Shown here: positions 3,526 to 60,981 of the stretch, piece by piece
Numbering within the stretch: position 1 is the first letter of the stretch
How the letters are laid out: every line of letters starts with the position of its first letter
DNA from: Patescibacteria group bacterium
GTDB taxonomy: Bacteria > Patescibacteriota > Microgenomatia > UBA1400 > PJMF01
Direction: 5' to 3'
Assembly: GCA_045541795.1 (NCBI GenBank)
Contig: JAZQJV010000018.1
Span: 37,857 to 101,856, forward strand
DNA length: 64,000 bases
The notes under the pieces: generated by a model
Seen by the model: the letters and a program-made list of their open reading frames with translations, nothing else
What the model was told of the DNA's origin: nothing
Databases searched by the model: none
Position numbers and translations under genes: made by a program

Positions 3526-3852
3526 ATGATGAGCCAGGCTCAAGCGGAGTCTTACGCGCGTGACCTGCGTGAACTTACCCAAACTGATCCTGATCTTACG
3601 GCACGCATTGACCGCCAGTATCAGCGAGCGTTGGAACTTTCTCATGAATCCGCTGGCGCTGATATGCAGACTTCATTCGCGCAGGCAAACGTTACTGAAG
3701 GCGATCCGCTAGTAGTGTACATGCAAAAGCAACTCGCCGGCGTAGACATGAATGAACAAGTGGATGCGATCCGCACTTTTTTGGATGGAGAACGTTTACG
3801 TAGCGAGCGGGATCAGTTGAATACGCAAATTGAGAATGCCGAACAAAAATAA
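3526..3852 (+). CDS. Hypothetical small acidic protein
   Basis: An intact ORF sitting between uvrA-like and the terminator/repeat cluster. No recognisable motif. Confidence 0.35.
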   Translation: MMSQAQAESYARDLRELTQTDPDLTARIDRQYQRALELSHESAGADMQTSFAQANVTEGDPLVVYMQKQLAGVDMNEQVDAIRTFLDGERLRSERDQLNTQIENAEQK

Positions 3853-3905
3853 TTGAGTATTTATTGTGTACAATAAATAAATTAATATTGATACATAAAG
3901 ATTTT

Positions 3906-3950
3906 TAAAAGTAGTTAAAAACGTTAGCAGACAAGAGGCGCGACTGCTAA
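3906..3950 (-). terminator. Hairpin gttagcag-N13-ctgctaa preceded by an A-run on the plus strand (a U-run on the minus-strand RNA). Candidate intrinsic terminator for the minus-strand gene 4102..5217, and module C of the intergenic repeat family.
   Basis: The inverted repeat is seen directly. The same conserved stem with different loops occurs at ~25521-25560 and ~60953-60980. Confidence 0.45.
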
Positions 3951-4033
3951 AAATTAGTCACTTATTTTTTAGGGAGTGTTTCGGGATTTTTGGGCTGCGC
4001 CCAAAAATCCCGAAACACAAAAACTCCCACAAC

Positions 4034-4065
4034 CAAAAAAATCTGCGCTCCCTTTGGGAGCGCAG
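4034..4065 (-). terminator. Rho-independent terminator (stem ctgcgctccc/gggagcgcag with a T-run on the minus strand) for the glycine-rich protein gene
   Basis: A 10-bp GC-rich stem with a 3-nt loop, followed on the minus strand by ATTTTTTT. It lies about 40 nt past the stop of 4102..5217. Confidence 0.6.
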
Positions 4066-4101
4066 TGCATCTAAAGGTAGAAAGAGAAAGTAAGTGACGA
4101 A

Positions 4102-5217
4102 TTAATTAAGGCGCGTGATCCTGGCATAGCCGTTTCCCGTTTTGCTGCAATCGGCGGTTGCTGTCGCACTTACACAAGTATTCGACTGCGTACGGGTAGC
4201 GTCAACGGTAGAAGTCGCACAGTTGTAGCACGTCATGTGTTTGGTGATGCCGTTTGCGGAAATGAGGTTGGATGAACCAATGTAACCGGAGCCGCCAGAA
4301 CCAGACGAAAATATTGCGCCACTTCCACCATAGTATCCTGCTCCTCCACCACTATTTGTTTCGCCAGTTGAGACGTGAGAATCACCGCCACGTCCAAAGT
4401 CACCACAGGCATTATTGCCGTTAGAACATCCACCATTTGTTTGCGTACCAGGATATGACTTTCTTCCTGAATAAGTCCACCCAGAACATAAACTTGTCCC
4501 TTCTGCACCAGAGTAACCTCCTCCATTACCACCGATTCCGCAATTGGCATAATTAGTATAATTAGCACCGCCGCCAGCACCAGCAACAATTATTATTGCT
4601 GCTTGATTGGTTTTAAATGTTTGCAGCAAGCCAGTACTTGTTGTGATACTGGTGGCACCGCCGCCGCCAGCTACTGAAGTTGTACTTTCGTACATATAGA
4701 CATGATATCCAAAACCACCACCATTATACCCTCCGTTTGTGTAACCCGTAGCGCTGTAAAGCGACTGACCTTTGCCACCAACATTGATAAATAATGAAGT
4801 ATCTAGTGATGACATAATACTGCCAACTGCATAACCGCCATAACCTCCGGCTCGACTAGTAGCATCTCCTCCCTGCGCTCCCCACACCTCCAACTTGTAA
4901 CTCCTCCCGGCACACGCCGTAAATGTCTGCTCACCGCCGGTATAGTCAAAATTCTTACTTCCGCCCACACTCAGCCCGTCATCACAAGTACTGGCCGGCT
5001 CTGTCGCCATCCATCGTCCGCCGCCAATCGCCACAAACTTACTCCCACCAATCCTGATCGTGCTGCCGGCGGCAATATCACGCACCTTCATCGTGGTAAT
5101 GCTAGCGCTCGCCGCCCACACTTTACCGTTTCGTGCGGGCAATTCATCGCTCCATCGTGCCGCTAGTGCCAGTATCATTGTCGCCGCCAAAATCCCCCGC
5201 CACGCTGCATACCGCAT
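4102..5217 (-). CDS. Secreted glycine-rich repeat protein of unknown function (about 372 aa from Met at 5217). It has an N-terminal signal/TM segment and long G/S/T/N/Y-rich tracts.
   Basis: The translation begins MRYAAWRGILAATMILALAARW, which is signal-like. GGxGG / GGYGGY / AGAGGG tracts run throughout. Cysteines cluster near the C-terminus. Confidence 0.6.
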   Translation of the reverse strand: MRYAAWRGILAATMILALAARWSDELPARNGKVWAASASITTMKVRDIAAGSTIRIGGSKFVAIGGGRWMATEPASTCDDGLSVGGSKNFDYTGGEQTFTACAGRSYKLEVWGAQGGDATSRAGGYGGYAVGSIMSSLDTSLFINVGGKGQSLYSATGYTNGGYNGGGFGYHVYMYESTTSVAGGGGATSITTSTGLLQTFKTNQAAIIIVAGAGGGANYTNYANCGIGGNGGGYSGAEGTSLCSGWTYSGRKSYPGTQTNGGCSNGNNACGDFGRGGDSHVSTGETNSGGGAGYYGGSGAIFSSGSGGSGYIGSSNLISANGITKHMTCYNCATSTVDATRTQSNTCVSATATADCSKTGNGYARITRLN

Positions 5218-5545: not shown

Positions 5546-5589
5546 TTTACATCTTGACGGCCTCGGTTTGATGTGTTATAATATAGTAT
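5546..5589 (+). promoter_or_regulatory. Sigma70-type promoter with TTGACG at -35, a 17-nt spacer and an extended -10 TGTGTTATAAT, with the ATG 7 nt downstream (leaderless start of the ATPase gene)
   Basis: The sequence ttgacggcctcggtttgatgtgttataatatagtatATG is read directly. Confidence 0.55.
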
Positions 5590-7882: not shown

Positions 7883-7911
7883 AAAAATTGAGTATTTTTT
7901 GTGTACAATAA

Positions 7912-8418
7912 ATGACTATGAAAAAACTCCCGCAATTCCTCACTGGCATCGGTCAAGATTCACACCGCTTGCGTGCGGCCAAAAAAGGTGAAGTTCTCAC
8001 TCTCGCCGGCGTCCCTTTCGACTGTGGTCTCACGCTACAAGCTAACTCTGATGGTGACGTCATCCTGCATGCTTTATTTAATGCTGTGTCTACCGCCTTG
8101 GGTGGCGGTTCTATCAGTACTGTCGCTGATAAAATGTGCGCCGCCGACATCACTGACTCTCGCGCCTACTTGCAGGTCATCTTAGAAAAAATGTCTGCCC
8201 GCGGCTACATGCTCGTCAATATCAGTATCAGCATCGAAGCCGGTCAGCCGCGTTTGGAAAAATATTTCGTGTACATGAAAAAGTCACTCGCAGATTTGTG
8301 TGGGCTCGATACTGATCAGGTCGGCTTGAGTGCCACTAGTGGCGAAGGACTCACTCGTGTGAGTGATGGCGACGGTATTAGCGTGATCGCCAACGTCCTT
8401 TTGGAACGGACCACATGA
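7912..8418 (+). CDS. ispF: 2-C-methyl-D-erythritol 2,4-cyclodiphosphate synthase (IspF)
   Basis: GIGQDSHRL..SDGDVILHAL..ISIEAGQPRL motifs are present. The stop overlaps the ispE start (ATGA). The alternative start is Met at 7918. Confidence 0.8.
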   Translation: MTMKKLPQFLTGIGQDSHRLRAAKKGEVLTLAGVPFDCGLTLQANSDGDVILHALFNAVSTALGGGSISTVADKMCAADITDSRAYLQVILEKMSARGYMLVNISISIEAGQPRLEKYFVYMKKSLADLCGLDTDQVGLSATSGEGLTRVSDGDGISVIANVLLERTT

Positions 8419-10356: not shown

Positions 10357-10453
10357 CAGTTATTCGGTAATAAAAATCAGTATTACGGTTGGAAAATTCA
10401 GTTATTCGGTAAAACGAGAAATTTAAATCGAGTATTTATTGTATACGATAAAT
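10357..10453 (+). repeat. Left copy of a ~100-bp inverted-repeat pair (modules A+B: a ttattcggtaa-rich segment plus the degenerate palindrome ATTTATTGTATACGATAAAT)
   Basis: It is about 90% identical to the reverse complement of 14711-14810 over ~100 bp. Confidence 0.7.
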
Positions 10454-10550
10454 TGTTTTTATTCCGGTATATCAATGTATTCATATACCTCACTTTTTAA
10501 GTAAATTGTACACAATTTGTCTACGCTATCTTCTACCGGAAGACTGAAAT

Positions 10551-14627: not shown

Positions 14628-14710
14628 TCAGCGCCAAAATTAACTTTTTTCACCTCAAAAAATCAGTGCCAAAATTATACCGGTGTACCAATTAAATTTC
14701 AAAAATCAAA

Positions 14711-14836
14711 ATTCATTTATTGTACACAAAAAATACTCAATTTAATTTTTCATTTTTACCGAATAACTGAATTTCCCAACCGTAATACTGATTTTTCTTA
14801 CCGAATATGTCATAAAAATTACCGAATAACTCAATT
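14711..14836 (-). repeat. Right copy of the inverted-repeat pair (palindrome B plus the ttaccgaataa-rich module A, in reverse complement), extended by an extra partial A unit
   Basis: Its reverse complement aligns with 10357-10453 at about 90% identity. Confidence 0.7.
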
Positions 14837-14878
14837 TTGGCGTCATTACTATTTTCCCCATAAAAAACGCGAAATCGG

Positions 14879-15571
14879 GTGTATAATATCCACATGTCAA
14901 AATTTAAGTCCGTGACTGCGCACTTGCAAGAGGTTTGGGAAATATTCCGTGCGGACGGCCTTTATTTGATAAATCTGAATTTTTTCATTGGTATCCAATT
15001 ACTCGTCTTTGGCGGTGGGCTGACACTTTTTTATTTTGGTAATCTGCCGCGCTGGTTCACCCTTTTATCCGCCATCATCTGTTTGGGCATTTTTAATATT
15101 TCCCTGACAGGTGTCTCCAAAAATTTGTTTGCGCTCTCGCGCGAGCGCGGTCCTGCTAAGTACCCCGTTTTTCATCGAAGCTATTTGGTGCTCGGTTTGC
15201 CGCTCCTTTTATCTTATTTACTTATCGGCGTCGTGCCGATTTTGATCATTGTCGCCATGGTGTTTGCACTTCTAGCCGGCGCTTTTGCTTATTGGCCGTA
15301 TATTTTTGCTGTCACTATCATTTTTTGTCTGCTTTGGCAGTGGCTGCTCGGCCTGGCGTCGAGCGTGATTTTAGACACCAGAGTCAGCCTCCCAGATGCA
15401 ATCGTCACCAGTTTCCGGCTGGTGCTGCAAAAGCCCTGGCAGACTTTACTCTTGGTGATTATTGATTTTGCTATTTTGATCGTAGGCAGTTTTATCCCAG
15501 TGGTGGGGACTTTTGCCGCCATCAATTGGATTATCATCAGTGCTGGTCATTTATATTGGGGTCTCAAGTAG
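14879..15571 (+). CDS. Integral membrane protein, unknown function (about 5-6 TM)
   Basis: Hydrophobic helices run throughout. The upstream sequence gggtgTATAATatccacATG indicates a leaderless -10. Confidence 0.5.
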   Translation: MYNIHMSKFKSVTAHLQEVWEIFRADGLYLINLNFFIGIQLLVFGGGLTLFYFGNLPRWFTLLSAIICLGIFNISLTGVSKNLFALSRERGPAKYPVFHRSYLVLGLPLLLSYLLIGVVPILIIVAMVFALLAGAFAYWPYIFAVTIIFCLLWQWLLGLASSVILDTRVSLPDAIVTSFRLVLQKPWQTLLLVIIDFAILIVGSFIPVVGTFAAINWIIISAGHLYWGLK

Positions 15572-25520: not shown

Positions 25521-25650
25521 TATTAGCACTCTATCATTTAGACTGCTAACGTTTTTAACTACTTTAAAATTTACCTATGTATCAATATAAATTCATTTAT
25601 TGTACACAATAAATACTCAATTTTCTTTTTCATTTTTACCGTATAACTGG
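25521..25650 (-). repeat. Full-length copy (reverse orientation) of the modular intergenic repeat, with the hairpin module C, the palindrome module B and the ttaccgtataa module A. It overlaps the stop codon of the A2M-like gene.
   Basis: The reverse complement of 25521-25622 is about 85% identical to 3853-3950. Positions 25611-25650 match 14730-14770. Confidence 0.7.
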
Positions 25651-31225: not shown

Positions 31226-31406
31226 TGCATCCAAATAGTAATTGATAGGGAAGCGGGCTATTTGTCGTCATTCTTACTTTATACCCGATCACTAATTAGC
31301 GTCTGCATGTCCCGCCCGCCGTAGATGATCATTGCTATATCATTTTCCCGCCTTCTTGTCAAAACTTTTACTGTTTTCACTCATATCATCAAATTCCCAT
31401 GCATAG

Positions 31407-31435
31407 CGCTCATTTTTGTGGTATAATAAGAATAT
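31407..31435 (+). promoter_or_regulatory. Extended -10 promoter TTTGTGGTATAAT with the ATG 8 nt downstream (leaderless)
   Basis: catttttgtggtataataagaatatATG is read directly. The same motif recurs at 18237, 32663, 34118, 35222, 38676 and 47700. Confidence 0.55.
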
Positions 31436-32563
31436 ATGCGAAAACTTCGTGTTTTTAGCCAGGCTGTGTGTGTGTGTGTGGCTCTCGCCACTCTTTGTGC
31501 TAAGTCGGTAAGTGCAAATTATTGCTTGTGTCAGTATCCCGCCAGCGGGACACCGACAGAACTAGACTGCAAAGATGTAGGAAGCACGACCTCATGTAGT
31601 GATCAGTGTAGCTATTGGTCAGTTTACACATGGGGAACACATAGCGGACCATATAATACTTCAACCGAATGTGCAGCAAAGAAGCTTGAAGCTCAAAGGA
31701 AAACTGGTGCTGATACGGGCAATCAAACATGCCTGATTGTGGTTCAAGACAACACTACTAAGGGAGTTAGACATACGTGTGAAAAACTAGGCGGCGCCAG
31801 TTCTTGCAATGATGTAGCAGCGGCGGCAACACTTAATAGCAACGAAAGTATTAGGCAGAAGACGCTGTTTGATGATCCCTCAGCCTGTGAAAATGCATTT
31901 AGTACTCTTACAACACAAGTAGCCTGCAAGAAAACTAAAAACAGCGAGTGTATAGATATTACCGTCTACACTGATAGTTGGGATACAATAGGGTATTTTG
32001 CTTGTTTTAATGGCGAAAACCGTATGTCGTATTGTCAGGGTCCACAGTGCTGTATCTATCAAAACGATAGTGGACGCCAAACATGTCAATGCGGTACTGA
32101 TAATCTTACTGACAGCGGAAGTTGCAAGAGCACCCACGGTAGTGCTGGTTCATTGGTAAGTGGTCCGTATCACCGTACCGCTTGCGCAGATAAGCTAGAC
32201 TCCGAGCCCCTCACCGTCGACCTCCTCCCCAAATACGAAAAACTCTCCCAGACCTCACTTGACGAAATCAACCCTCTTACCCAAAGCAAAGTCCTCAGCG
32301 AAGCCAACACTCGTACTCCCGGCGCTCTCGTCTCTCGCCTTGTCCGCAATATTGTCTTCCCGATTGCTGGCTTACTTCTCTTTCTCATGATTACCTGGTC
32401 TGGCTTTCAAATCGTCCAAGGCGGAATGATGGGTGATGATAATGCTGTCAGCTCAGGTAAAGGACGTCTTACCGCCACTATTGTCGGCTTCCTACTGCTT
32501 TTTGGCAGTTACTGGCTCTGGTCGCTGGTAGAAGCGGCGCTGGGACTGGGGACAACGAGCTAG
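31436..32563 (+). CDS. Secreted cysteine-rich protein (about 28 Cys) with a conserved C-terminal two-TM hairpin anchor (VirB2/TrbC-type pilin-like), paralog A
   Basis: Signal peptide MRKLRVFSQAVCVCVALATLCAKSVSA. A Cys-rich ectodomain ends with the QCGTDNLTDSGSC motif shared with paralog B. The C-terminal 123 aa are identical to paralog B: TM1 IVFPIAGLLLFLMITWSGFQIV, loop QGGMMGDDNAVSSGKGR, TM2 LTATIVGFLLLFGSYWLWSLV. Confidence 0.75.
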   Translation: MRKLRVFSQAVCVCVALATLCAKSVSANYCLCQYPASGTPTELDCKDVGSTTSCSDQCSYWSVYTWGTHSGPYNTSTECAAKKLEAQRKTGADTGNQTCLIVVQDNTTKGVRHTCEKLGGASSCNDVAAAATLNSNESIRQKTLFDDPSACENAFSTLTTQVACKKTKNSECIDITVYTDSWDTIGYFACFNGENRMSYCQGPQCCIYQNDSGRQTCQCGTDNLTDSGSCKSTHGSAGSLVSGPYHRTACADKLDSEPLTVDLLPKYEKLSQTSLDEINPLTQSKVLSEANTRTPGALVSRLVRNIVFPIAGLLLFLMITWSGFQIVQGGMMGDDNAVSSGKGRLTATIVGFLLLFGSYWLWSLVEAALGLGTTS

Positions 32564-32684
32564 ACAAACCCAGAAATTGATAAATTAAGAAATAGAAAGG
32601 TAGAAAAAATATAAATAAAGTGGAGGTGAGAGCGTGTTTTAATTTCCCCTATTTACGGGAAGATTTTGTGGTATAATAAAAGGT

Positions 32685-34097
32685 ATGACGAAGAAAATTG
32701 GCTTCATTGTTATACTTGCAGCAACAAACATAATATTAGTTACTAATGCGGTTTTTGCGGACGAGAGTTGGTGCTTATTTGTTCCTACGCCAGGAACTGA
32801 TTCTGCTGGTAAGACGTATGCGGGAAGGTTTGATTGTTCACCACCAGATGTTTCCGGCGCCTGTAATCCAGCACTCGCAGGATATGGTAGCTGGGAAGCC
32901 GCTGGTTCGGGATACAAAAGCTTTGATGAATGTGCGAATGCTTATGACAATCTAAGCGGTTACTGCTATACAAGTGGTAGTGACGAATGTGCTAGTGCTA
33001 AGCGCAACACTTGCAGTTCCTTTTTTTATAAAGACGCAAATACGTGTGGGAATGAACATCTAGATTTCAACGCTTACTGCTATGACCCGGCTACAAACAA
33101 ATGCAATAAAATAAGTGGAGGGGTATCCAAAAGCTCTACTAGCAGTAAATGTGTCGGCGAATACACATATAAGGGGGGCACGGCAGAGTCTAATAAGAAA
33201 TCTTGCGAGGACTATGCTGCAACAATGGACGAACAGAAAAAAGCGGGTGATAAATTTTGTCTCTGGTACACTCATGGAGAGAATAATAATGAAAAGGCGG
33301 GAGATACGGATTTTAGGTCATTCAGATGTGAACCGATACTAATTGAGACCGAAACAACATGTGATGATCGTTTCCCACCAACTAATAGTGAAAAATGGAT
33401 ACTCTATCGCAAACAACCATATTCTACTCAAGAAGAATGTAAAAACGCTCTGTACCAAGAAAAAGTCTGGTGTTTCCATCCAAACGACGGCCGCTGCCAT
33501 AATGAAACATACGTCCAGTGTAGGGAACAAAACGGACAACAGTATAAGGATAAGACAACGTGTGAAGATAAACACCAAAAATGCTGTAAATATGAAGATA
33601 AGAATGGACACTCAACTTGCCAGTGTGGCTCTGATAATTTGGACGCAAAGGGGCAATGCTTAGCTTCATCTGATAAATACGGTTCTTTAAAGGGTAGCTA
33701 TGACGGTAGAACTGCTTGTTCTGATTCACTCGACTCTGAACCTCTCACCGTCGACCTCCTCCCCAAATACGAAAAACTCTCCCAAACCTCACTTGACGAA
33801 ATCAACCCTCTTACCCAAAGCAAAGTCCTCAGCGAAGCCAACACTCGCACTCCCGGCGCTCTCGTCTCTCGCCTTGTCCGCAATATTGTCTTCCCGATTG
33901 CCGGTCTTTTACTCTTTCTCATGATTACCTGGTCTGGCTTTCAAATCGTCCAAGGCGGAATGATGGGTGATGATAATGCTGTCAGCTCAGGTAAAGGACG
34001 TCTTACCGCCACCATCGTCGGCTTCCTACTGCTTTTTGGCAGTTACTGGCTCTGGTCGCTGGTAGAAGCGGCACTAGGACTGGGGACGACGAGCTAA
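32685..34097 (+). CDS. Secreted cysteine-rich protein (about 40 Cys) with the same C-terminal two-TM hairpin anchor, paralog B
   Basis: An N-terminal signal/TM (IGFIVILAATNIILVTNAVFA) is followed by a divergent Cys-rich ectodomain and the shared QCGSDNLDAKGQC motif. The last ~123 aa are identical to paralog A. The nt identity is about 97% over 33719-34097 vs 32191-32563, and all differences are synonymous. Confidence 0.75.
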   Translation: MTKKIGFIVILAATNIILVTNAVFADESWCLFVPTPGTDSAGKTYAGRFDCSPPDVSGACNPALAGYGSWEAAGSGYKSFDECANAYDNLSGYCYTSGSDECASAKRNTCSSFFYKDANTCGNEHLDFNAYCYDPATNKCNKISGGVSKSSTSSKCVGEYTYKGGTAESNKKSCEDYAATMDEQKKAGDKFCLWYTHGENNNEKAGDTDFRSFRCEPILIETETTCDDRFPPTNSEKWILYRKQPYSTQEECKNALYQEKVWCFHPNDGRCHNETYVQCREQNGQQYKDKTTCEDKHQKCCKYEDKNGHSTCQCGSDNLDAKGQCLASSDKYGSLKGSYDGRTACSDSLDSEPLTVDLLPKYEKLSQTSLDEINPLTQSKVLSEANTRTPGALVSRLVRNIVFPIAGLLLFLMITWSGFQIVQGGMMGDDNAVSSGKGRLTATIVGFLLLFGSYWLWSLVEAALGLGTTS

Positions 34098-36912: not shown

Positions 36913-36951
36913 ATCTTTGACGCCGGGCGCATTTCATGTTACAATGAAAAT

Positions 36952-38676
36952 ATGCGCCGATTATTAATGAGTTTTGGCATTTTTTTCCTGCTTTCCGGGA
37001 TGAGTTGTAGTGCTATTGACCCGGTAGATGAACTGCAAGGCCAGATCAACGAGCTGGAAAACCTCAAGAAAATGTCTGAAGATGCGACTTCTAATCTGGA
37101 AGCAGAAGTTAAGAATTTAAGCAGTCGCATTAACGCTGCCAGACGTCAAGTGGCACAAATTAAAGTCCAAATGGAGGAATTAGCCACCAGCATTGAGCAG
37201 CGCGAACAAACTCGCGAGGAAAAAACCGAACTTCTCGGTAATGTCGTCGCTAAAACTTACAAATCATCCCGTCAAACGTCACCTCTGCTCATCCTCCTCG
37301 ATCCCGAAAGTAATCATTCTGCCTTCCTTTCGGCCGTCAGTTACCAGGCTGCGCAAAAACGCAACCAGCAACAAATCCAAGATATTGTCAATGAACTTAT
37401 CCAGCTACAGCAAGACAAGGTATCTTTGGAAAACACCAAGACTCGTCTGGTTGCCTTAGAAGCGCAGCTCGACGAACAAACAAAATTTTTCCAGCACGAA
37501 ATTGACTCTGCCAAAAGTTACCAAGCTGAGCTTTCTGGAAAAATCGCCGAACTGTCCGCCCGCCAAAAGCAAATCATTGACGCTCGCTCGGGCACATCCA
37601 TTACTAGTGTCGGCGAGGTCCCGGCTGCCGATGATCCCAAAGCCTCCATCGAATGGAAAGCCCAGGCTCCCAGTAATCATTTTGCCGTTTTCTCTTTTGG
37701 CGCCTACACGCATCGTAACGGTATGAGTCAGTACGGCGCTCGCGCGCGCGCGAGCGAAGGCCAAAGTGTAGAGGAGATTTTAGCTCATTACTATCCCGGC
37801 ACTCATCTGGAAAAGGGCTATAGCGAGATGGGGGAGATCGACGTACAAGGTTACGGTCGGATGTCATTTGAAGATCAATACTTACAAAGTATTTACGAAA
37901 TGCCCGGCAGCTGGCCGCTGGAAGCGCTCAAAGCTCAGGCGATCGCTGCCCGCACTTATGCCATCCGCTACACCGGCAACGGCGCTCGTTCTATCTGTAC
38001 TACTGAAGCCTGTCAGGTCTACAAAAACGGCAAAAAGGGCGGCGACTGGGAAAAGGCAGTCAATGAGACCAAAAACTGGGTTTTAGTCACTGATGACGGC
38101 CAGCCGGCCTCTACGCAATACGCCTCCACTCACGGCGGCTATGCCAATACCAGCGGCTGGGATACGACCGATGGCAGCGGTGATGGTACCTGGTCAGATC
38201 GCGCCTGGGAAGCAAAAGCGTCCTCACCTTGGTTTTACAAAGCTTGGTGGCGCTCTGGGTATTCCTCCAGAGGTGATACTTGTGGCCGCGACAGTCCGTG
38301 GCTGTCTCAAGCCGAAATGAGCGACATCCTCAATGCATACCTGGTCAAAAACGGCTCTACTGGTGCCGACATCAGCCGGATCCAGCCTGTGACGATTAAC
38401 TCCTGCAAAATCGGTGGTTCGGGTGGCAATCCTTATTCCCTTGATGAACTCAAACGTTTTGCCGAGGCCGCTGGCGGAGCCGTCACTACGATCTCCGGTG
38501 TGACCGTGTCTCATGGCAGCGGCGGTCAGACAGCTCAGGTCCGTTTCCAGACAAATCGCGGCGAGCTCACCTTGTCAGGCAGCGAATTTAAGCAAATCTT
38601 TAATCTGCGCGCCCCCGGGTTTTTACGCATTCCCCAAAGTAGTTTTGCCAGTTTTAATATCGAGTACAAACCTTGA
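36952..38676 (+). CDS. Secreted SpoIID/LytB-domain protein with an N-terminal ~200-aa coiled coil (putative peptidoglycan remodelling enzyme)
   Basis: A signal peptide is followed by a long heptad-rich region. MSQYGARARASEGQSVEEILAHYYPGT and PLEALKAQAIAARTYAIRYTG are SpoIID-family motifs. Confidence 0.7.
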   Translation: MRRLLMSFGIFFLLSGMSCSAIDPVDELQGQINELENLKKMSEDATSNLEAEVKNLSSRINAARRQVAQIKVQMEELATSIEQREQTREEKTELLGNVVAKTYKSSRQTSPLLILLDPESNHSAFLSAVSYQAAQKRNQQQIQDIVNELIQLQQDKVSLENTKTRLVALEAQLDEQTKFFQHEIDSAKSYQAELSGKIAELSARQKQIIDARSGTSITSVGEVPAADDPKASIEWKAQAPSNHFAVFSFGAYTHRNGMSQYGARARASEGQSVEEILAHYYPGTHLEKGYSEMGEIDVQGYGRMSFEDQYLQSIYEMPGSWPLEALKAQAIAARTYAIRYTGNGARSICTTEACQVYKNGKKGGDWEKAVNETKNWVLVTDDGQPASTQYASTHGGYANTSGWDTTDGSGDGTWSDRAWEAKASSPWFYKAWWRSGYSSRGDTCGRDSPWLSQAEMSDILNAYLVKNGSTGADISRIQPVTINSCKIGGSGGNPYSLDELKRFAEAAGGAVTTISGVTVSHGSGGQTAQVRFQTNRGELTLSGSEFKQIFNLRAPGFLRIPQSSFASFNIEYKP

Positions 38677-46003: not shown

Positions 46004-46061
46004 AACAAAAGTTACAAATTAACACATTTTGTTTTCGTTTGTTCATCAAAACCAGGCGAAA

Positions 46062-46094
46062 TTGTTAAACATTTGTTAAACATATGTTTAACAA
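46062..46094 (+). promoter_or_regulatory. Candidate operator upstream of gpmI: three 11-mers TTGTTAAACAT (two direct, one inverted), with the second and third forming a perfect 22-bp palindrome TTGTTAAACATATGTTTAACAA. A nearby direct repeat GTGAACAA occurs twice.
   Basis: Read directly. The reverse complement of 46073-46094 is identical to itself. Confidence 0.5.
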
Positions 46095-46148
46095 CAAATA
46101 TAGACAAAATGTGAACAATAATGTACACAAAAAGTGAACAAAGGAGTC

Positions 46149-60089: not shown

Positions 60090-60201
60090 TTTTTCTTTCT
60101 ATTTTCACTACGATAGTCGTATTGTACCACGGATTTGCCGTTTTTGGATAGCAAACTGAAATCATTTTCTCAACTTTTTGTGCTATAATAACAGACACCT
60201 T

Positions 60202-60285
60202 GGAAGTGTCGCCTAGCGGCTATGGCAGCGGTTTCGAAAACCGCCGGGAGCAATCCCTCGCAGGTTCGAGTCCTGTCACTTCCGC
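60202..60285 (+). tRNA. tRNA-Ser (anticodon CGA), type II with a long variable arm. CCA is not encoded.
   Basis: The acceptor GGAAGTG pairs with CACTTCC. The anticodon stem is GCGGT/ACCGC with the loop TTCGAAA. The variable arm is GGGAGCAATCCCTC, and the T-loop is GGTTCGAGTCC. It is preceded by tgtgcTATAAT. Confidence 0.8.
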
Positions 60286-60317
60286 CCAAAATCACGAGCA
60301 AAAGGATACTATTATAT

Positions 60318-60905
60318 ATGGATCAAAACAGATCAAACAAACAGGATATTTTGGCGGCTTTACGCTCATATGTGCCAGCCGACGAGCGTGAGCGCTCAAG
60401 TCTCCAGCAGACCATCACCTGGCTTGGTCACAATTCCATCCTTACTTATCCGGCCAATAAGTCTGGCCATCTCACGGCCGACTGCTGGCTTTTAAGCCCG
60501 GATTGCTCGCATGTTTTGCTTACCCTTCATCACAAATTTCATCGCTGGGTACAGCTGGGCGGTCACATGGACGCGGGCGAGACACTTATCCAAACGGCTT
60601 TGCGCGAAACTCATGAAGAAAGCGGCATTGCGGATGTTACTCTGCTAAGCAGTGATATTTTTGACCTCGACGTCCACCGTGTGGACGCGTACCCTGGCGA
60701 GCCTCACTATCATTATGATGTCCGGTTTCTCGCTCGTGCCGGCAGCTGGGATTATCAGATTTCACCAGAATCAGACGAGTTGCGTTGGTTTACGCCCGAG
60801 GATGTGGATGCACTTGCAGCTGGCGATCTCAATCAAATCAATGCGACTCTGACACGGATGACGGCTAAATGGAGAAAGTTTTTGAGTATTTATTGTGTAC
60901 AATAA
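60318..60905 (+). CDS. NUDIX hydrolase
   Basis: The Nudix box GGHMDAGETLIQTALRETHEESGI is present. The start is trimmed to the Met after the tRNA (the ORF-track call 60222 overlaps the tRNA). Confidence 0.75.
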   Translation: MDQNRSNKQDILAALRSYVPADERERSSLQQTITWLGHNSILTYPANKSGHLTADCWLLSPDCSHVLLTLHHKFHRWVQLGGHMDAGETLIQTALRETHEESGIADVTLLSSDIFDLDVHRVDAYPGEPHYHYDVRFLARAGSWDYQISPESDELRWFTPEDVDALAAGDLNQINATLTRMTAKWRKFLSIYCVQ

Positions 60906-60981
60906 ATCGAAAAAATACCTATACACAGGTAAAATTACAAGTCAATAAAAACGTTAGCAGAGTAGGAGTGAGACTGCTAAT
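60883..60981 (+). repeat. Copy of the modular intergenic repeat (palindrome module B overlapping the NUDIX stop codon, plus hairpin module C acting as a minus-strand terminator for 60982..62226)
   Basis: ttgagtatttattgtgtacaataaat .. aaaaacgttagcag-N13-ctgctaa has the same architecture and stem as 3853-3950. Confidence 0.7.

What the first reader, a model, noticed from the sequence alone, without database searches (positions are those of the whole stretch)
3853..3950. Modular intergenic repeat family (A: ttattcggtaa-rich; B: 20-bp palindrome; C: conserved-stem hairpin) at 3' ends of at least six genes
A near-perfect palindrome, ATTTATTGTGTACAATAAAT, usually preceded by TTGAGT, occurs six times:
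- 3859-3878;
- 7894-7913, where it overlaps the putative ispF -10 and start;
- 10433-10452, a degenerate copy;
- 14714-14740, in reverse complement;
- 25591-25620, in reverse complement;
- 60889-60908.

In five cases it begins within 0-5 nt of a stop codon. In two cases it overlaps the stop: the TAA of the NUDIX gene at ~60903 and the TAA of the A2M gene at ~25636.

Three copies (3853-3950, the reverse complement of 25521-25622, and 60883-60980) extend into an 85%-identical ~100-bp unit. That unit ends in a hairpin AAAAACGTTAGCAG-loop-CTGCTAA whose stem is conserved while its loop is completely different in each copy, which argues for selection on the structure. Two other copies are instead joined to a ttattcggtaa-repeat module (10357-10420 and 14745-14836), and the 25521-25650 copy has all three modules.

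The palindrome is AT-rich and lacks a U-tract, so it is not a classical terminator. It reads TGTGTACAAT, which is -10-like, on both strands. It could be a DNA-binding site, a REP/BOX-like mobile intergenic element, or a bidirectional promoter/terminator module.
Basis: seen in the sequence. Interest (0 to 1): 0.6.

Follow-up and report, generated by a model that had tools for sequence, protein, structure and literature searches.

The report
Dispersed repeat carrying a CIRCE-like operator
A small uncultivated (CPR/Patescibacteria-like) bacterium carries a species-specific family of short modular DNA elements inserted at gene ends; one module looks like the binding site of the heat-shock repressor HrcA, and the elements are kept by selection, so they are probably portable regulatory cassettes rather than junk.

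Summary
The 26-nt core B (TTGAGT plus the 9-2-9 palindrome ATTTATTGT-GT-ACAATAAAT) occurs at six sites against 0.01 expected by chance.

It combines with two other modules:
- A: TTATTCGGTAA direct repeats with a 21-nt period.
- C: a fixed 38-39 nt downstream of B.

New points:
- C has the geometry and arms of CIRCE, the HrcA operator (TTAGCACTC-N9-GAGTGCTAA). Copy 5 differs at 1 of 18 positions. The "variable loop" is the unconstrained N9 spacer.
- The family is lineage-specific. It is absent from relatives with 77-87% IspG identity and from all scanned collections.
- Copy 6 replaced the last three codons of a NUDIX gene.
- Orthologous copies in a strain about 97% identical changed far less than 4-fold sites (10/526 against about 50 expected).
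- Three of five convergent gene junctions carry an element.
- B's TACAAT sits 8 nt before the leaderless ispF start codon.

Best reading: an insertion-derived, selected promoter/operator cassette. How it spreads, which proteins bind it and whether it is transcribed are not shown. No transposase, terminal inverted repeats, target duplications or Rfam match were found.

The parts
3853..3878 (+). Copy 1, module B: TTGAGT plus the 9-2-9 palindrome ATTTATTGT-GT-ACAATAAAT. It starts directly after the TAA stop of the 108-aa gene 3526..3852.
3879..3916 (+). Copy 1, 38-nt spacer ('mid') with the invariant ATACA. Its hairpin is degenerate in this copy.
3917..3950 (+). Copy 1, module C: AAAAACG plus the CIRCE-like 9-N9-9 repeat TTAGCAGAC-AAGAGGCGC-GACTGCTAA (3924-3950). 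It has 3 mismatches to CIRCE.
7885..7915 (+). Copy 2, module B alone, between ispH and ispF. It is 31/31 identical to copy 4. TACAAT (7904-7909) lies 8 nt before the ispF ATG at 7918.
   Evidence: (I9)
10357..10412 (+). Copy 3, module A: three 21-nt-phased direct repeats (TTATTCGGTAA, ATTACGGTTGG, TTATTCGGTAA), starting 15 nt after the ispG stop.
10428..10453 (+). Copy 3, module B, the degenerate copy: TCGAGTATTTATTGTATACGATAAAT.
10466..10518 (+). Copy 3, downstream part: the hairpin GGTATAT-N10-ATATACC followed by TCACTTTTT, then a second B-core palindrome AAATTGTACACAATTT (10503-10518), 67 nt centre-to-centre from B.
14715..14740 (-). Copy 4, module B, inverted relative to the flanking genes.
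14745..14840 (-). Copy 4, module A: four 21-nt-phased units.
14640..14714 (-). Copy 4, downstream part: the small hairpin AUUGG-UACA-CCGGU, a TTGAAA-17-TATAAT promoter-like site and a T tract. There is no C module.
25636..25646 (-). Copy 5, one A unit (TTATACGGTAA). Its final TAA is the stop codon of the A2M-like gene.
25595..25620 (-). Copy 5, module B.
25523..25594 (-). Copy 5, mid spacer plus module C. Read on the + strand, 25523-25549 is TTAGCACTC-TATCATTTA-GACTGCTAA, with 1 mismatch in 18 to CIRCE. It lies about 100 nt upstream of the GAPDH start and 56 nt upstream of GAPDH's own conserved promoter.
60882..60907 (+). Copy 6, module B. It encodes the last residues and the stop of the NUDIX gene (..FL|SIYCVQ*), replacing the native ..FLAKM*.
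60908..60946 (+). Copy 6, mid spacer with the hairpin TACCT-ATACAC-AGGTA. In the sister strain an A-T pair has become G-C (compensatory change).
60947..60980 (+). Copy 6, module C: AAAAACG plus TTAGCAGAG-TAGGAGTGA-GACTGCTAA. It ends 1 nt before the stop codon of the convergent C39-like peptidase gene.

Best explanation
This is a species-level, insertion-derived family of short composite DNA elements whose conserved parts are protein-binding sites. In effect each element is a portable promoter/operator cassette.

**Modules.**
- Module C is a CIRCE-type inverted repeat (9-N9-9, TTAGCA..TGCTAA). It is most likely bound by the organism's HrcA heat-shock repressor or a close functional analogue.
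- Module B is a second operator, a near-perfect 9-2-9 palindrome. It overlaps a -10-like TACAAT of the same GTG-TAYAAT form used by other leaderless promoters of this genome.
- Module A is an array of B-half-site-like direct repeats spaced two helical turns apart, which could recruit more of the B-binding factor.

**Proposed working.**
- Transcription starts about 7 nt after TACAAT.
- It runs through a short 5' hairpin (mid) and meets the C operator about 35 nt downstream. A bound repressor there gates it.
- Depending on where the cassette landed, the transcript is a leaderless mRNA (ispF), an extra upstream transcript (GAPDH), or an antisense or colliding transcript at convergent gene ends.

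**Shown.**
- The family, its modules and its fixed geometry.
- The match of C to CIRCE.
- Restriction to this lineage.
- An insertion into the NUDIX 3' end.
- Purifying selection between strains.

**Inferred.**
- Which proteins bind the modules.
- That B fires as a promoter.
- How the element spread.
For: **1. The family is real.** Six sites against 0.01 expected; modular pairwise homologies.

**2. C resembles CIRCE.**
- TTAGCA-N15-TGCTAA is exact three times against 0.18 expected allowing 1 mismatch.
- It is absent from all 138 other loci held, the one further match being L001, the same element in the sister strain.
- Mismatches to the published consensus TTAGCACTC-N9-GAGTGCTAA (PMC7464140 and PMC4245973) are 1 of 18 in copy 5, 3 in copy 1 and 4 in copy 6.
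- A metagenome scan for AAAAACG+TTAGCA-N15-TGCTAA returned 113 sites, almost all canonical CIRCE. In nature this signature therefore means CIRCE.

**3. The conservation pattern fits operators.**
- B is 26/26 identical and AAAAACGTTAGCAG is 14/14 identical in copies 1, 5 and 6.
- The spacers have fixed length (38-39 nt and N9) but drift in sequence.
- The B and C stems never covary.

**4. There is purifying selection.** Against a sister strain, copies 2-5 show 10/526 differences against about 50 expected from 4-fold sites, P about 1e-12. In copy 6 none of the 7 changes touches the C arms or AAAAACG, and 2 fall in N9.

**5. The elements are insertions specific to this lineage.**
- No B motif occurs in about 20-kb syntenic loci of relatives.
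- The ispH-ispF gap is 15 nt in L082 against 35 nt here.
- NUDIX orthologues end ..FLAKM*, whereas this one ends ..FLSIYCVQ*.
- GAPDH's own promoter is conserved downstream of copy 5.

**6. B looks like a promoter.**
- TACAAT lies 8 nt before the ispF ATG, inside the 5-10 nt range of the other leaderless genes.
- GGTGTATAAT promoters occur at 14878-14887 and about 34125.

**7. The forward strand may be transcribed.** The mid hairpin shows C-G, U.G and U-A at the same pairs across copies, plus a strain-level A-U to G-C change.
Against: - No chaperone gene and no hrcA lie in the window. Two of the three C sites sit at convergent gene ends, where a classical operator has nothing obvious to control.
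- Copies 1 and 6 exceed the usual limit of 2 mismatches for CIRCE.
- B has no -35 element. TTGAGT is only 10 nt upstream of TACAAT, and the TG is not in the canonical TGn register.
- In the sister strain, copy 6 has CACAAT instead of TACAAT. That change makes the palindrome perfect, which argues that the dyad rather than the -10 is what is kept.
- No binding protein, transposase or recombinase was found.
- The mid-hairpin covariation is not statistically significant (40/500 shuffles reach it).
Confidence: 0.45

Rival explanations
1. This is a purely selfish miniature mobile element (MITE, REP or PATE-like). The conserved islands B and C are the sequences its transposase or recombinase needs, and copies survive only where insertion is harmless, at gene ends and convergent junctions. 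There is no host function, and the CIRCE likeness is captured or coincidental.
For: - The family is lineage-specific.
- Copy 6 inserted into the NUDIX 3' end.
- Copies 2 and 4 are 31/31 identical.
- Truncated and modular forms exist.
- Three of five convergent junctions are occupied and none of four divergent ones. Hypergeometric P is about 0.008 by my own calculation.
- The elements make up about one third of all intergenic DNA in the window.
Against: - There are no terminal inverted repeats and no clear target-site duplications (sequence inspection).
- No transposase, Y1/HUH enzyme or recombinase is present among about 55 window proteins.
- All copies sit at identical positions in a strain with 8-10% synonymous divergence. 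There they evolve about five times slower than 4-fold sites, which selection for mobility alone does not explain.
- No copy occurs in a further 6.9 kb beyond the window.
Confidence: 0.25
2. The element acts at the RNA level. One option is a small non-coding RNA gene family: a B promoter, a 5' hairpin, an AU-rich linker and a 3' hairpin C with a variable, target-specific loop. The other is a terminator or insulator module that stops read-through between convergent genes, since on the opposite strand C reads as a hairpin followed by CGTTTTT.
For: - The mid hairpin covaries, with U.G pairs allowed only on the forward strand.
- C on the reverse strand is followed by a T run in all three copies.
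- Copy 6's C abuts the stop codon of the convergent gene.
- Canonical terminators are rare in this genome.
- The elements are enriched at convergent junctions.
Against: - The C stem is 7 bp with a 13-nt loop and shows no covariation. Folding energies are unremarkable for composition, with z from -0.3 to -3.1.
- B is an AU-only stem without a U tract.
- Loop length is fixed, as expected for a protein site but not for a hairpin loop.
- Two other convergent gene pairs have no spacer at all, so terminators are not required at such junctions.
- No Rfam family matches.
- In copy 5 nothing converges on C.
Confidence: 0.2
3. B is a site-specific recombination (att, res or dif-like) site, and the modular combinations arise by recombination at B joining different left (A) and right (mid-C) flanks.
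For: - B is a 9-2-9 dyad with an asymmetric central GT, as in crossover sites of serine recombinases.
- B is the only module common to all copies, and the A and mid-C modules combine freely on either side of it.
- Copies 3 and 4 form an inverted pair 4.2 kb apart (I2).
Against: - No recombinase lies in the window.
- Gene order around all copies is identical in the sister strain.
- B does not resemble the dif consensus as I recall it.
- The flanking genes are housekeeping genes, not cassettes.
Confidence: 0.07

Closest known systems
[quoted passage not shown]
   Same: - Module C has the same 9-N9-9 geometry and identical outer hexamers TTAGCA/TGCTAA.
- It has a free-sequence, fixed-length spacer.
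- Copy 5 matches 17 of 18 positions.
- The ACG flank also occurs next to canonical CIRCE in other taxa.
- It lies downstream of a -10-like hexamer, as in many HrcA-controlled promoters.
   Different: - It is not next to groES, dnaK, hrcA or any chaperone gene.
- It is embedded in a dispersed repeat.
- Position 7 of both arms is swapped (G..C instead of C..G) in copies 1 and 6, and the inner triplets are degenerate.
- Two of the three sites sit between convergent genes.
- Binding by HrcA is untested.
BOX elements of Streptococcus pneumoniae and Correia/NEMIS elements of Neisseria (modular or promoter-bearing dispersed intergenic repeats)
   Same: - They are short (30-270 bp), lineage-specific, multi-copy intergenic elements.
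- They are built from modules present in variable number.
- They lie near gene ends and can supply promoter-like or structure-forming sequences.
   Different: - There is no sequence similarity.
- There are no terminal inverted repeats (Correia elements have them).
- Copy number is known only for 71 kb.
- One module is a recognisable transcription-factor operator.
REP/BIME elements with RAYT transposases
   Same: Palindromic units at gene ends, occurring in both orientations, with no target-site duplications.
   Different: - There is no 5' GTAG tetranucleotide.
- The element is AT-rich rather than GC-rich.
- No RAYT gene was seen.
- It carries three different modules instead of one repeated palindrome.
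Dually regulated heat-shock promoters (HspR/HAIR sites upstream plus HrcA/CIRCE at the core promoter) of Campylobacter and Helicobacter
   Same: The architecture is similar: an upstream cluster of one strong dyad flanked by weaker related sites (here B with the A units and mid), followed by a CIRCE-type dyad (PMC7464140). B begins with TTGAGT, one HAIR half-site.
   Different: - B is not a HAIR repeat: the second half, ACTCAAG, is absent.
- No chaperone gene lies downstream.
- The spacing differs.

Membership tests
CIRCE / HrcA operator | Inverted repeat of two 9-mers separated by exactly 9 nt | tested here: met
   All three C modules are 9-N9-9, with TTAGCA and TGCTAA exactly 15 nt apart.
CIRCE / HrcA operator | At most 2 mismatches to TTAGCACTC-N9-GAGTGCTAA (the criterion used in PMC4245973) | tested here: inconclusive
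   Copy 5 has 1 mismatch, and the same copy in the sister strain also has 1. Copy 1 has 3 and copy 6 has 4, all at the inner triplets.
CIRCE / HrcA operator | Located in the promoter or 5' UTR of chaperone operons (groESL, hrcA-grpE-dnaK, clpB, etc.) | tested here: not met
   No chaperone gene is in the window. Copies 1 and 6 lie between convergent genes, and copy 5 lies upstream of GAPDH.
CIRCE / HrcA operator | The genome encodes HrcA, and HrcA binds the site | not testable with these tools
   Only about 71 kb of the genome was reachable, no hrcA lies in it, and binding needs an experiment.
MITE | Terminal inverted repeats and target-site duplications | tested here: not met
   The element ends (TTGAGTA... 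and ...CTGCTAA) are not inverted copies of each other. The flanks are A/T runs without consistent duplication.
REP/BIME | A GTAG-prefixed imperfect palindrome with an associated RAYT (Y1 transposase) gene | tested here: not met
   There is no GTAG, and no PF01797-like protein is among the window proteins. A genome-wide search for RAYT was not possible.
Intrinsic (Rho-independent) terminator | A GC-rich stem with a short loop, followed directly by a U tract | tested here: not met
   - B is an A-U stem without a U tract.
- C has a 7-bp stem and a 13-nt loop. A T run follows only on the reverse strand, after CG.
- The scan does not call either module, but it does call the canonical terminator at 4043-4065.
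Sigma-70-type promoter (leaderless type of this genome) | A -10 TAnnnT, a TGn extension or a -35 at 16-18 nt, and a start codon 5-10 nt downstream | tested here: inconclusive
   - TACAAT is present.
- There is no -35 at 17 nt, and the TG is one base out of register. Two other apparent promoters share GTG-TAYAAT.
- The spacing to the ispF ATG is 8 nt.
- No start codon follows in the other five copies.
Integron attC | RYYYAAC ... GTTRRRY core sites, in arrays of cassettes next to intI | tested here: not met
   GTTAGCA fails GTTRRRY, there is no inverse core, the neighbours are housekeeping genes at irregular spacing, and there is no integrase.
Known RNA families (Rfam 15) | A covariance-model hit at the gathering score | tested here: not met
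   Only tRNA-Ser reaches the gathering score in the window. The E-value scan of 3780-4110 gives only chance miRNA-type hits on the neighbouring 43-bp palindrome.

The most novel reading that the evidence does not exclude
In a reduced, 95%-coding, largely leaderless genome with almost no intrinsic terminators, a mobile cassette has spread operator sites to the ends of non-chaperone genes. One operator is CIRCE/HrcA-type and the other is an unknown palindrome. Bound repressors there would act as stress-releasable roadblocks or gates for read-through and antisense transcription. The heat-shock repressor would then control gene-boundary insulation genome-wide rather than only chaperone promoters.
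Probability: 0.12. Interest if true: 0.75.

Novelty: new variant of a known kind. Interest (0 to 1): 0.45.

Why it matters
- Regulation in CPR/Patescibacteria is almost unknown, and these genomes have few transcription factors and tiny intergenic regions.
- About one third of the window's intergenic DNA is this one selected, lineage-specific element family.
- One module looks like the operator of a nearly universal heat-shock repressor. This offers a concrete, testable handle on how regulatory sites are created and moved in minimal genomes.
- If HrcA binds, it would be a case of a transcription-factor operator spread by a dispersed repeat to non-chaperone loci.
- If HrcA does not bind, the family is still a clean example of a constrained modular repeat in an uncultivated lineage.

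Tried and rejected
- **Collection scans for B.** The pattern GAGTATTTWTTGTRTACRATAAAT gave 0 hits in GTDB species genomes and 0 in JGI metagenome contigs. An 18-nt B pattern in viral contigs gave 53 single hits, none with TTGAGT or family flanks, so these are chance or generic promoter-like matches. A C pattern in viral contigs gave 0 hits.
- **More copies from the same organism.**
  - Four look-ups with window ORFs failed because the exact protein was not on record.
  - The 288-kb source contig could not be reached.
  - Searching the spurious 59-aa ORF that covers the A array found only itself.
  - nhmmer profiles of B-mid-C and A-B found nothing new in any held locus.
- **Other identities for A.** LytTR or other response-regulator sites were considered: the 21-nt phasing fits and TCAGTTATT matches 8 of 9 positions of the LytTR motif as I remember it. 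No such regulator is nearby and the motif is from memory, so this remains a lead only.
- **Other identities for B.**
  - HspR/HAIR: only one half-site (TTGAGT) is present.
  - dif/Xer, parS, Noc and DnaA boxes: no convincing match.
  - Tn7-type ends: ACAATAAA and TGT resemblances only, with no partner end and no Tns genes.
  - Ter sites: the orientation pattern + + + - - + and the monotonic GC skew argue against them.
- **Other ideas.**
  - Integron attC: the core sites are absent.
  - Small peptides downstream of B: only 4-15 codon ORFs, which are not conserved.
  - The TGTACA hexamer as a general motif: 19 occurrences against about 16 expected.
  - Literature on HrcA or CIRCE in Patescibacteria/Saccharibacteria, or on CIRCE within repeats: nothing relevant.

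Full report
**1. Observation**

The palindrome ATTTATTGTGTACAATAAAT (up to 3 mismatches) occurs at six places in the window: 3859, 7894 and 10434 on the + strand, 14715 and 25595 on the - strand, and 60888 on the + strand. Chance expectation is 0.01. Five copies are preceded by TTGAGT and one by TCGAGT, giving a 26-nt core "B". A core-only seventh copy lies at 10505-10516.

The other two modules are also non-random:
- TTATTCGGTAA (module A): 7 matches against 0.88 expected.
- AAAAACGTTAGCAG (the start of module C): exact in three copies.

Pairwise homologies and alignments give this architecture, read in the element's own orientation:
- A: zero to four 21-nt-phased direct repeats.
- B: 26-31 nt.
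- Spacer ("mid"): 38-39 nt.
- C: AAAAACG plus a 27-bp inverted repeat.

The copies carry these modules:

| Copy | Modules |
|---|---|
| 1 | B-mid-C |
| 2 | B only |
| 3 | A-B plus a different downstream part |
| 4 | A-B plus a different downstream part |
| 5 | one A unit, then B-mid-C |
| 6 | B-mid-C |

**2. Context**

- The window is about 95% coding, with only about 3.15 kb of intergenic DNA. Roughly one third of that is these elements.
- The genes are housekeeping genes: ispH/F/E/G, GAPDH, enolase, iPGM, RecJ, UvrA-like, cell-envelope genes and an A2M-like protein. There is no transposase, recombinase or obvious transcription factor.
- The best IspG match among GTDB species genomes is a Parcubacteria-group MAG at 57% identity, so this is a deep-branching CPR/Patescibacteria-like organism.
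- Most genes have their own TGnTATAAT promoter 5-10 nt before the ATG, so they are leaderless. Canonical terminators are rare.
- Three of the five convergent gene junctions hold an element, and the other two have no spacer at all. None of the four divergent junctions holds one, and 3 of about 44 tandem junctions do. The hypergeometric P is about 0.008 by my calculation.

**3. Module C is CIRCE-like**

- All three C modules read TTAGCA-N15-TGCTAA (3 matches against 0.18 expected allowing one mismatch).
- None occurs in the 138 other loci held.
- The published HrcA operator is TTAGCACTC-N9-GAGTGCTAA (PMC7464140 and PMC4245973).
- Copy 5, read on the + strand, is TTAGCACTC-TATCATTTA-GACTGCTAA, which is 1 mismatch in 18. 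Copy 1 has 3 mismatches and copy 6 has 4, all in the inner triplets.
- A scan of metagenome contigs for AAAAACG+TTAGCA-N15-TGCTAA returned 113 sites. Nearly all are canonical CIRCE from other taxa, and none belongs to this family. In nature the signature therefore essentially means CIRCE.
- The stem shows no covariation: 6 of 7 pairs never vary, and the seventh is simply lost in copy 5.

**4. Module B**

- B is a 9-2-9 dyad. It is 26/26 identical in copies 1, 5 and 6, although their spacers have diverged by 20-40%. Copies 2 and 4 are 31/31 identical.
- B contains TACAAT preceded by GTG. The same arrangement occurs at two other apparent leaderless promoters, upstream of 14894 and 34142.
- In copy 2, TACAAT ends 8 nt before the ispF ATG at 7918. 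The gene caller used that ATG on the sister contig, and it aligns with the start in a relative.
- Against a promoter role: there is no -35 at 17 nt, since TTGAGT is only 10 nt upstream of TACAAT.
- Also against it: in the sister strain, copy 6 reads GTGCAC. This destroys TACAAT but makes the 20-bp palindrome perfect. The dyad therefore seems to matter at least as much as the -10.
- The A unit TTATTCGGTAA resembles the B half TTATTGTGTAC at 8 of 11 positions, and the units are spaced 21 nt apart. This suggests auxiliary sites for the same factor, which is an inference.

**5. Origin**

- The motif is absent from GTDB species genomes and from JGI metagenome contigs.
- It is absent from about 20-kb syntenic loci of relatives with 87%, 83% and 77% IspG identity.
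- In the closest relative, the ispH-ispF gap is 15 nt without B.
- GAPDH's own promoter, TTTTTGCGTTACAAT, is conserved in that relative. In the window it lies downstream of copy 5, so GAPDH does not depend on the element.
- NUDIX orthologues (62-69% identity) end ..KWRDFLAKM*. The window protein ends ..KWRKFL-SIYCVQ*, with B starting exactly at the breakpoint.
- The convergent C39-like peptidase keeps its native ..LFVN* end 1 nt beyond C. Copy 6 is therefore a clean insertion of about 99 bp, from TTGAGT to CTGCTAA.
- No terminal inverted repeats or target-site duplications were seen.

**6. Selection**

Contigs from JGI sample 3300011008 (L086, L001, L253), and L254 from sample 3300010998, come from a sister strain about 97% identical in DNA. 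All elements are at the same positions in that strain.

- **Copies 2-5:** 10 differences in 526 nt (1.9%), against 8.4% at 4-fold sites. After adjusting for composition, about 50 differences are expected (P about 1e-12).
- **Copy 6:** this copy lies in a more divergent region (4-fold divergence 10.5-15%) and has 7 differences in 99 nt:
  - two in the N9 spacer of C, and none in the arms or in AAAAACG;
  - two forming a compensatory A-T to G-C change in the mid hairpin TACCT-ATACAC-AGGTA;
  - one elsewhere in mid;
  - two in B.
- **Mid hairpin across copies:** the same pairs read C-G, U.G and U-A around an invariant ATACA loop. This hints at an RNA hairpin on the forward strand, but it is not statistically significant (40 of 500 shuffles reach it).

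**7. Interpretation**

The best-supported reading is an insertion-derived, selected cassette of protein-binding sites. B is a dyad overlapping a -10-like hexamer, C is a CIRCE-type operator about 35 nt downstream of the presumed transcription start, and A units act as auxiliary sites. The cassette would behave as a portable, possibly HrcA-gated promoter. Its output depends on where it landed:

| Copy | Presumed output |
|---|---|
| 2 | leaderless ispF mRNA |
| 5 | additional transcript upstream of GAPDH |
| 1, 3, 4, 6 | antisense or colliding transcription |

What is not shown:
- that any protein binds B, C or A;
- that transcription starts at B;
- how the element spreads.

The rivals are scored in the report sections: a purely selfish element, an RNA-level sRNA or terminator module, and a recombination site. 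The absence of chaperone genes near C and the degenerate inner triplets in copies 1 and 6 are the main reasons not to file C as a bona fide CIRCE member.

**8. Limits**

- Only six loci (plus strain variants) in about 71 kb were accessible. A further 6.9 kb beyond the right edge has no copy.
- Rfam gives no family.
- RNA folding is not exceptional for the composition.
- No relevant literature was found.

Noticed in passing
window 31436-34097 (repeat 32177-32476 / 33711-34010): Two adjacent paralogous genes (375 and 470 aa, the first with a weak T4SS-pilin hit) share a 300-nt stretch at 94% identity. The sister-strain contig L001 lacks about 1.2 kb here, so it has only one copy. This is either a strain-level tandem duplication or deletion, or an assembly collapse.
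   Followed up: partly
window 3973-4022: A perfect 43-bp palindrome (20-bp arms GTGTTTCGGGATTTTTGGGC, 3-nt loop) is nested in GGGAG...CTCCC. It lies just downstream of copy 1 and upstream of the canonical terminator at 4043-4065 (minus strand). It is unique in the window and has no U tract on either strand.
   Followed up: partly
window 46050-46100: Between enolase and iPGM lies a three-half-site motif, TTGTTAAACAT TTGTTAAACAT ATGTTTAACAA (two direct copies and one inverted). It looks like an operator for a glycolysis regulator.
   Followed up: no
whole window, e.g. 5554-5589, 31405-31438, 32655-32687, 36913-36954: Most genes have their own TTGAC-N17-TGnTATAAT promoter ending 5-10 nt before the ATG, so they are leaderless. 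A few genes (44711, 47733, GAPDH) have leaders with AGGAG-type Shine-Dalgarno sequences. The four TTTTGTGGTATAATA promoters form a near-identical set.
   Followed up: partly
window 60201-60288 and 60222-60905: A tRNA-Ser(CGA) overlaps the 5' part of the long ORF listed for the NUDIX gene. The real NUDIX start is the ATG at 60318 (195 aa), as in the sister strain.
   Followed up: yes
window 14628-14680 and 14830-14845: Around copy 4, the sequence CGCCAAAATT occurs once directly (14631-14640) and once inverted (14832-14841), flanking the element. A second direct copy, TCAGTGCCAAAATTA, lies at 14663. This may be a remnant of terminal repeats or a chance match (estimated P about 0.03).
   Followed up: no
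L083 8562-8593 (relative with 83% IspG identity): The ispH-ispF spacer of this relative contains the 8-bp palindrome TTGTACAA in an AT-rich context, at the position where the window has B. This may be a coincidence, since TGTACA is not enriched overall.
   Followed up: partly
L140-L252 (metagenome hits): In a large group of human-gut contigs the CIRCE dyad extends to AAACGTTAGCACTC-N9-GAGTGCTAACGTTT and lies directly after a coding region ending ..ctgatctat..aagcatg. This shows that the ACG flank seen in module C also occurs with canonical CIRCE.
   Followed up: no
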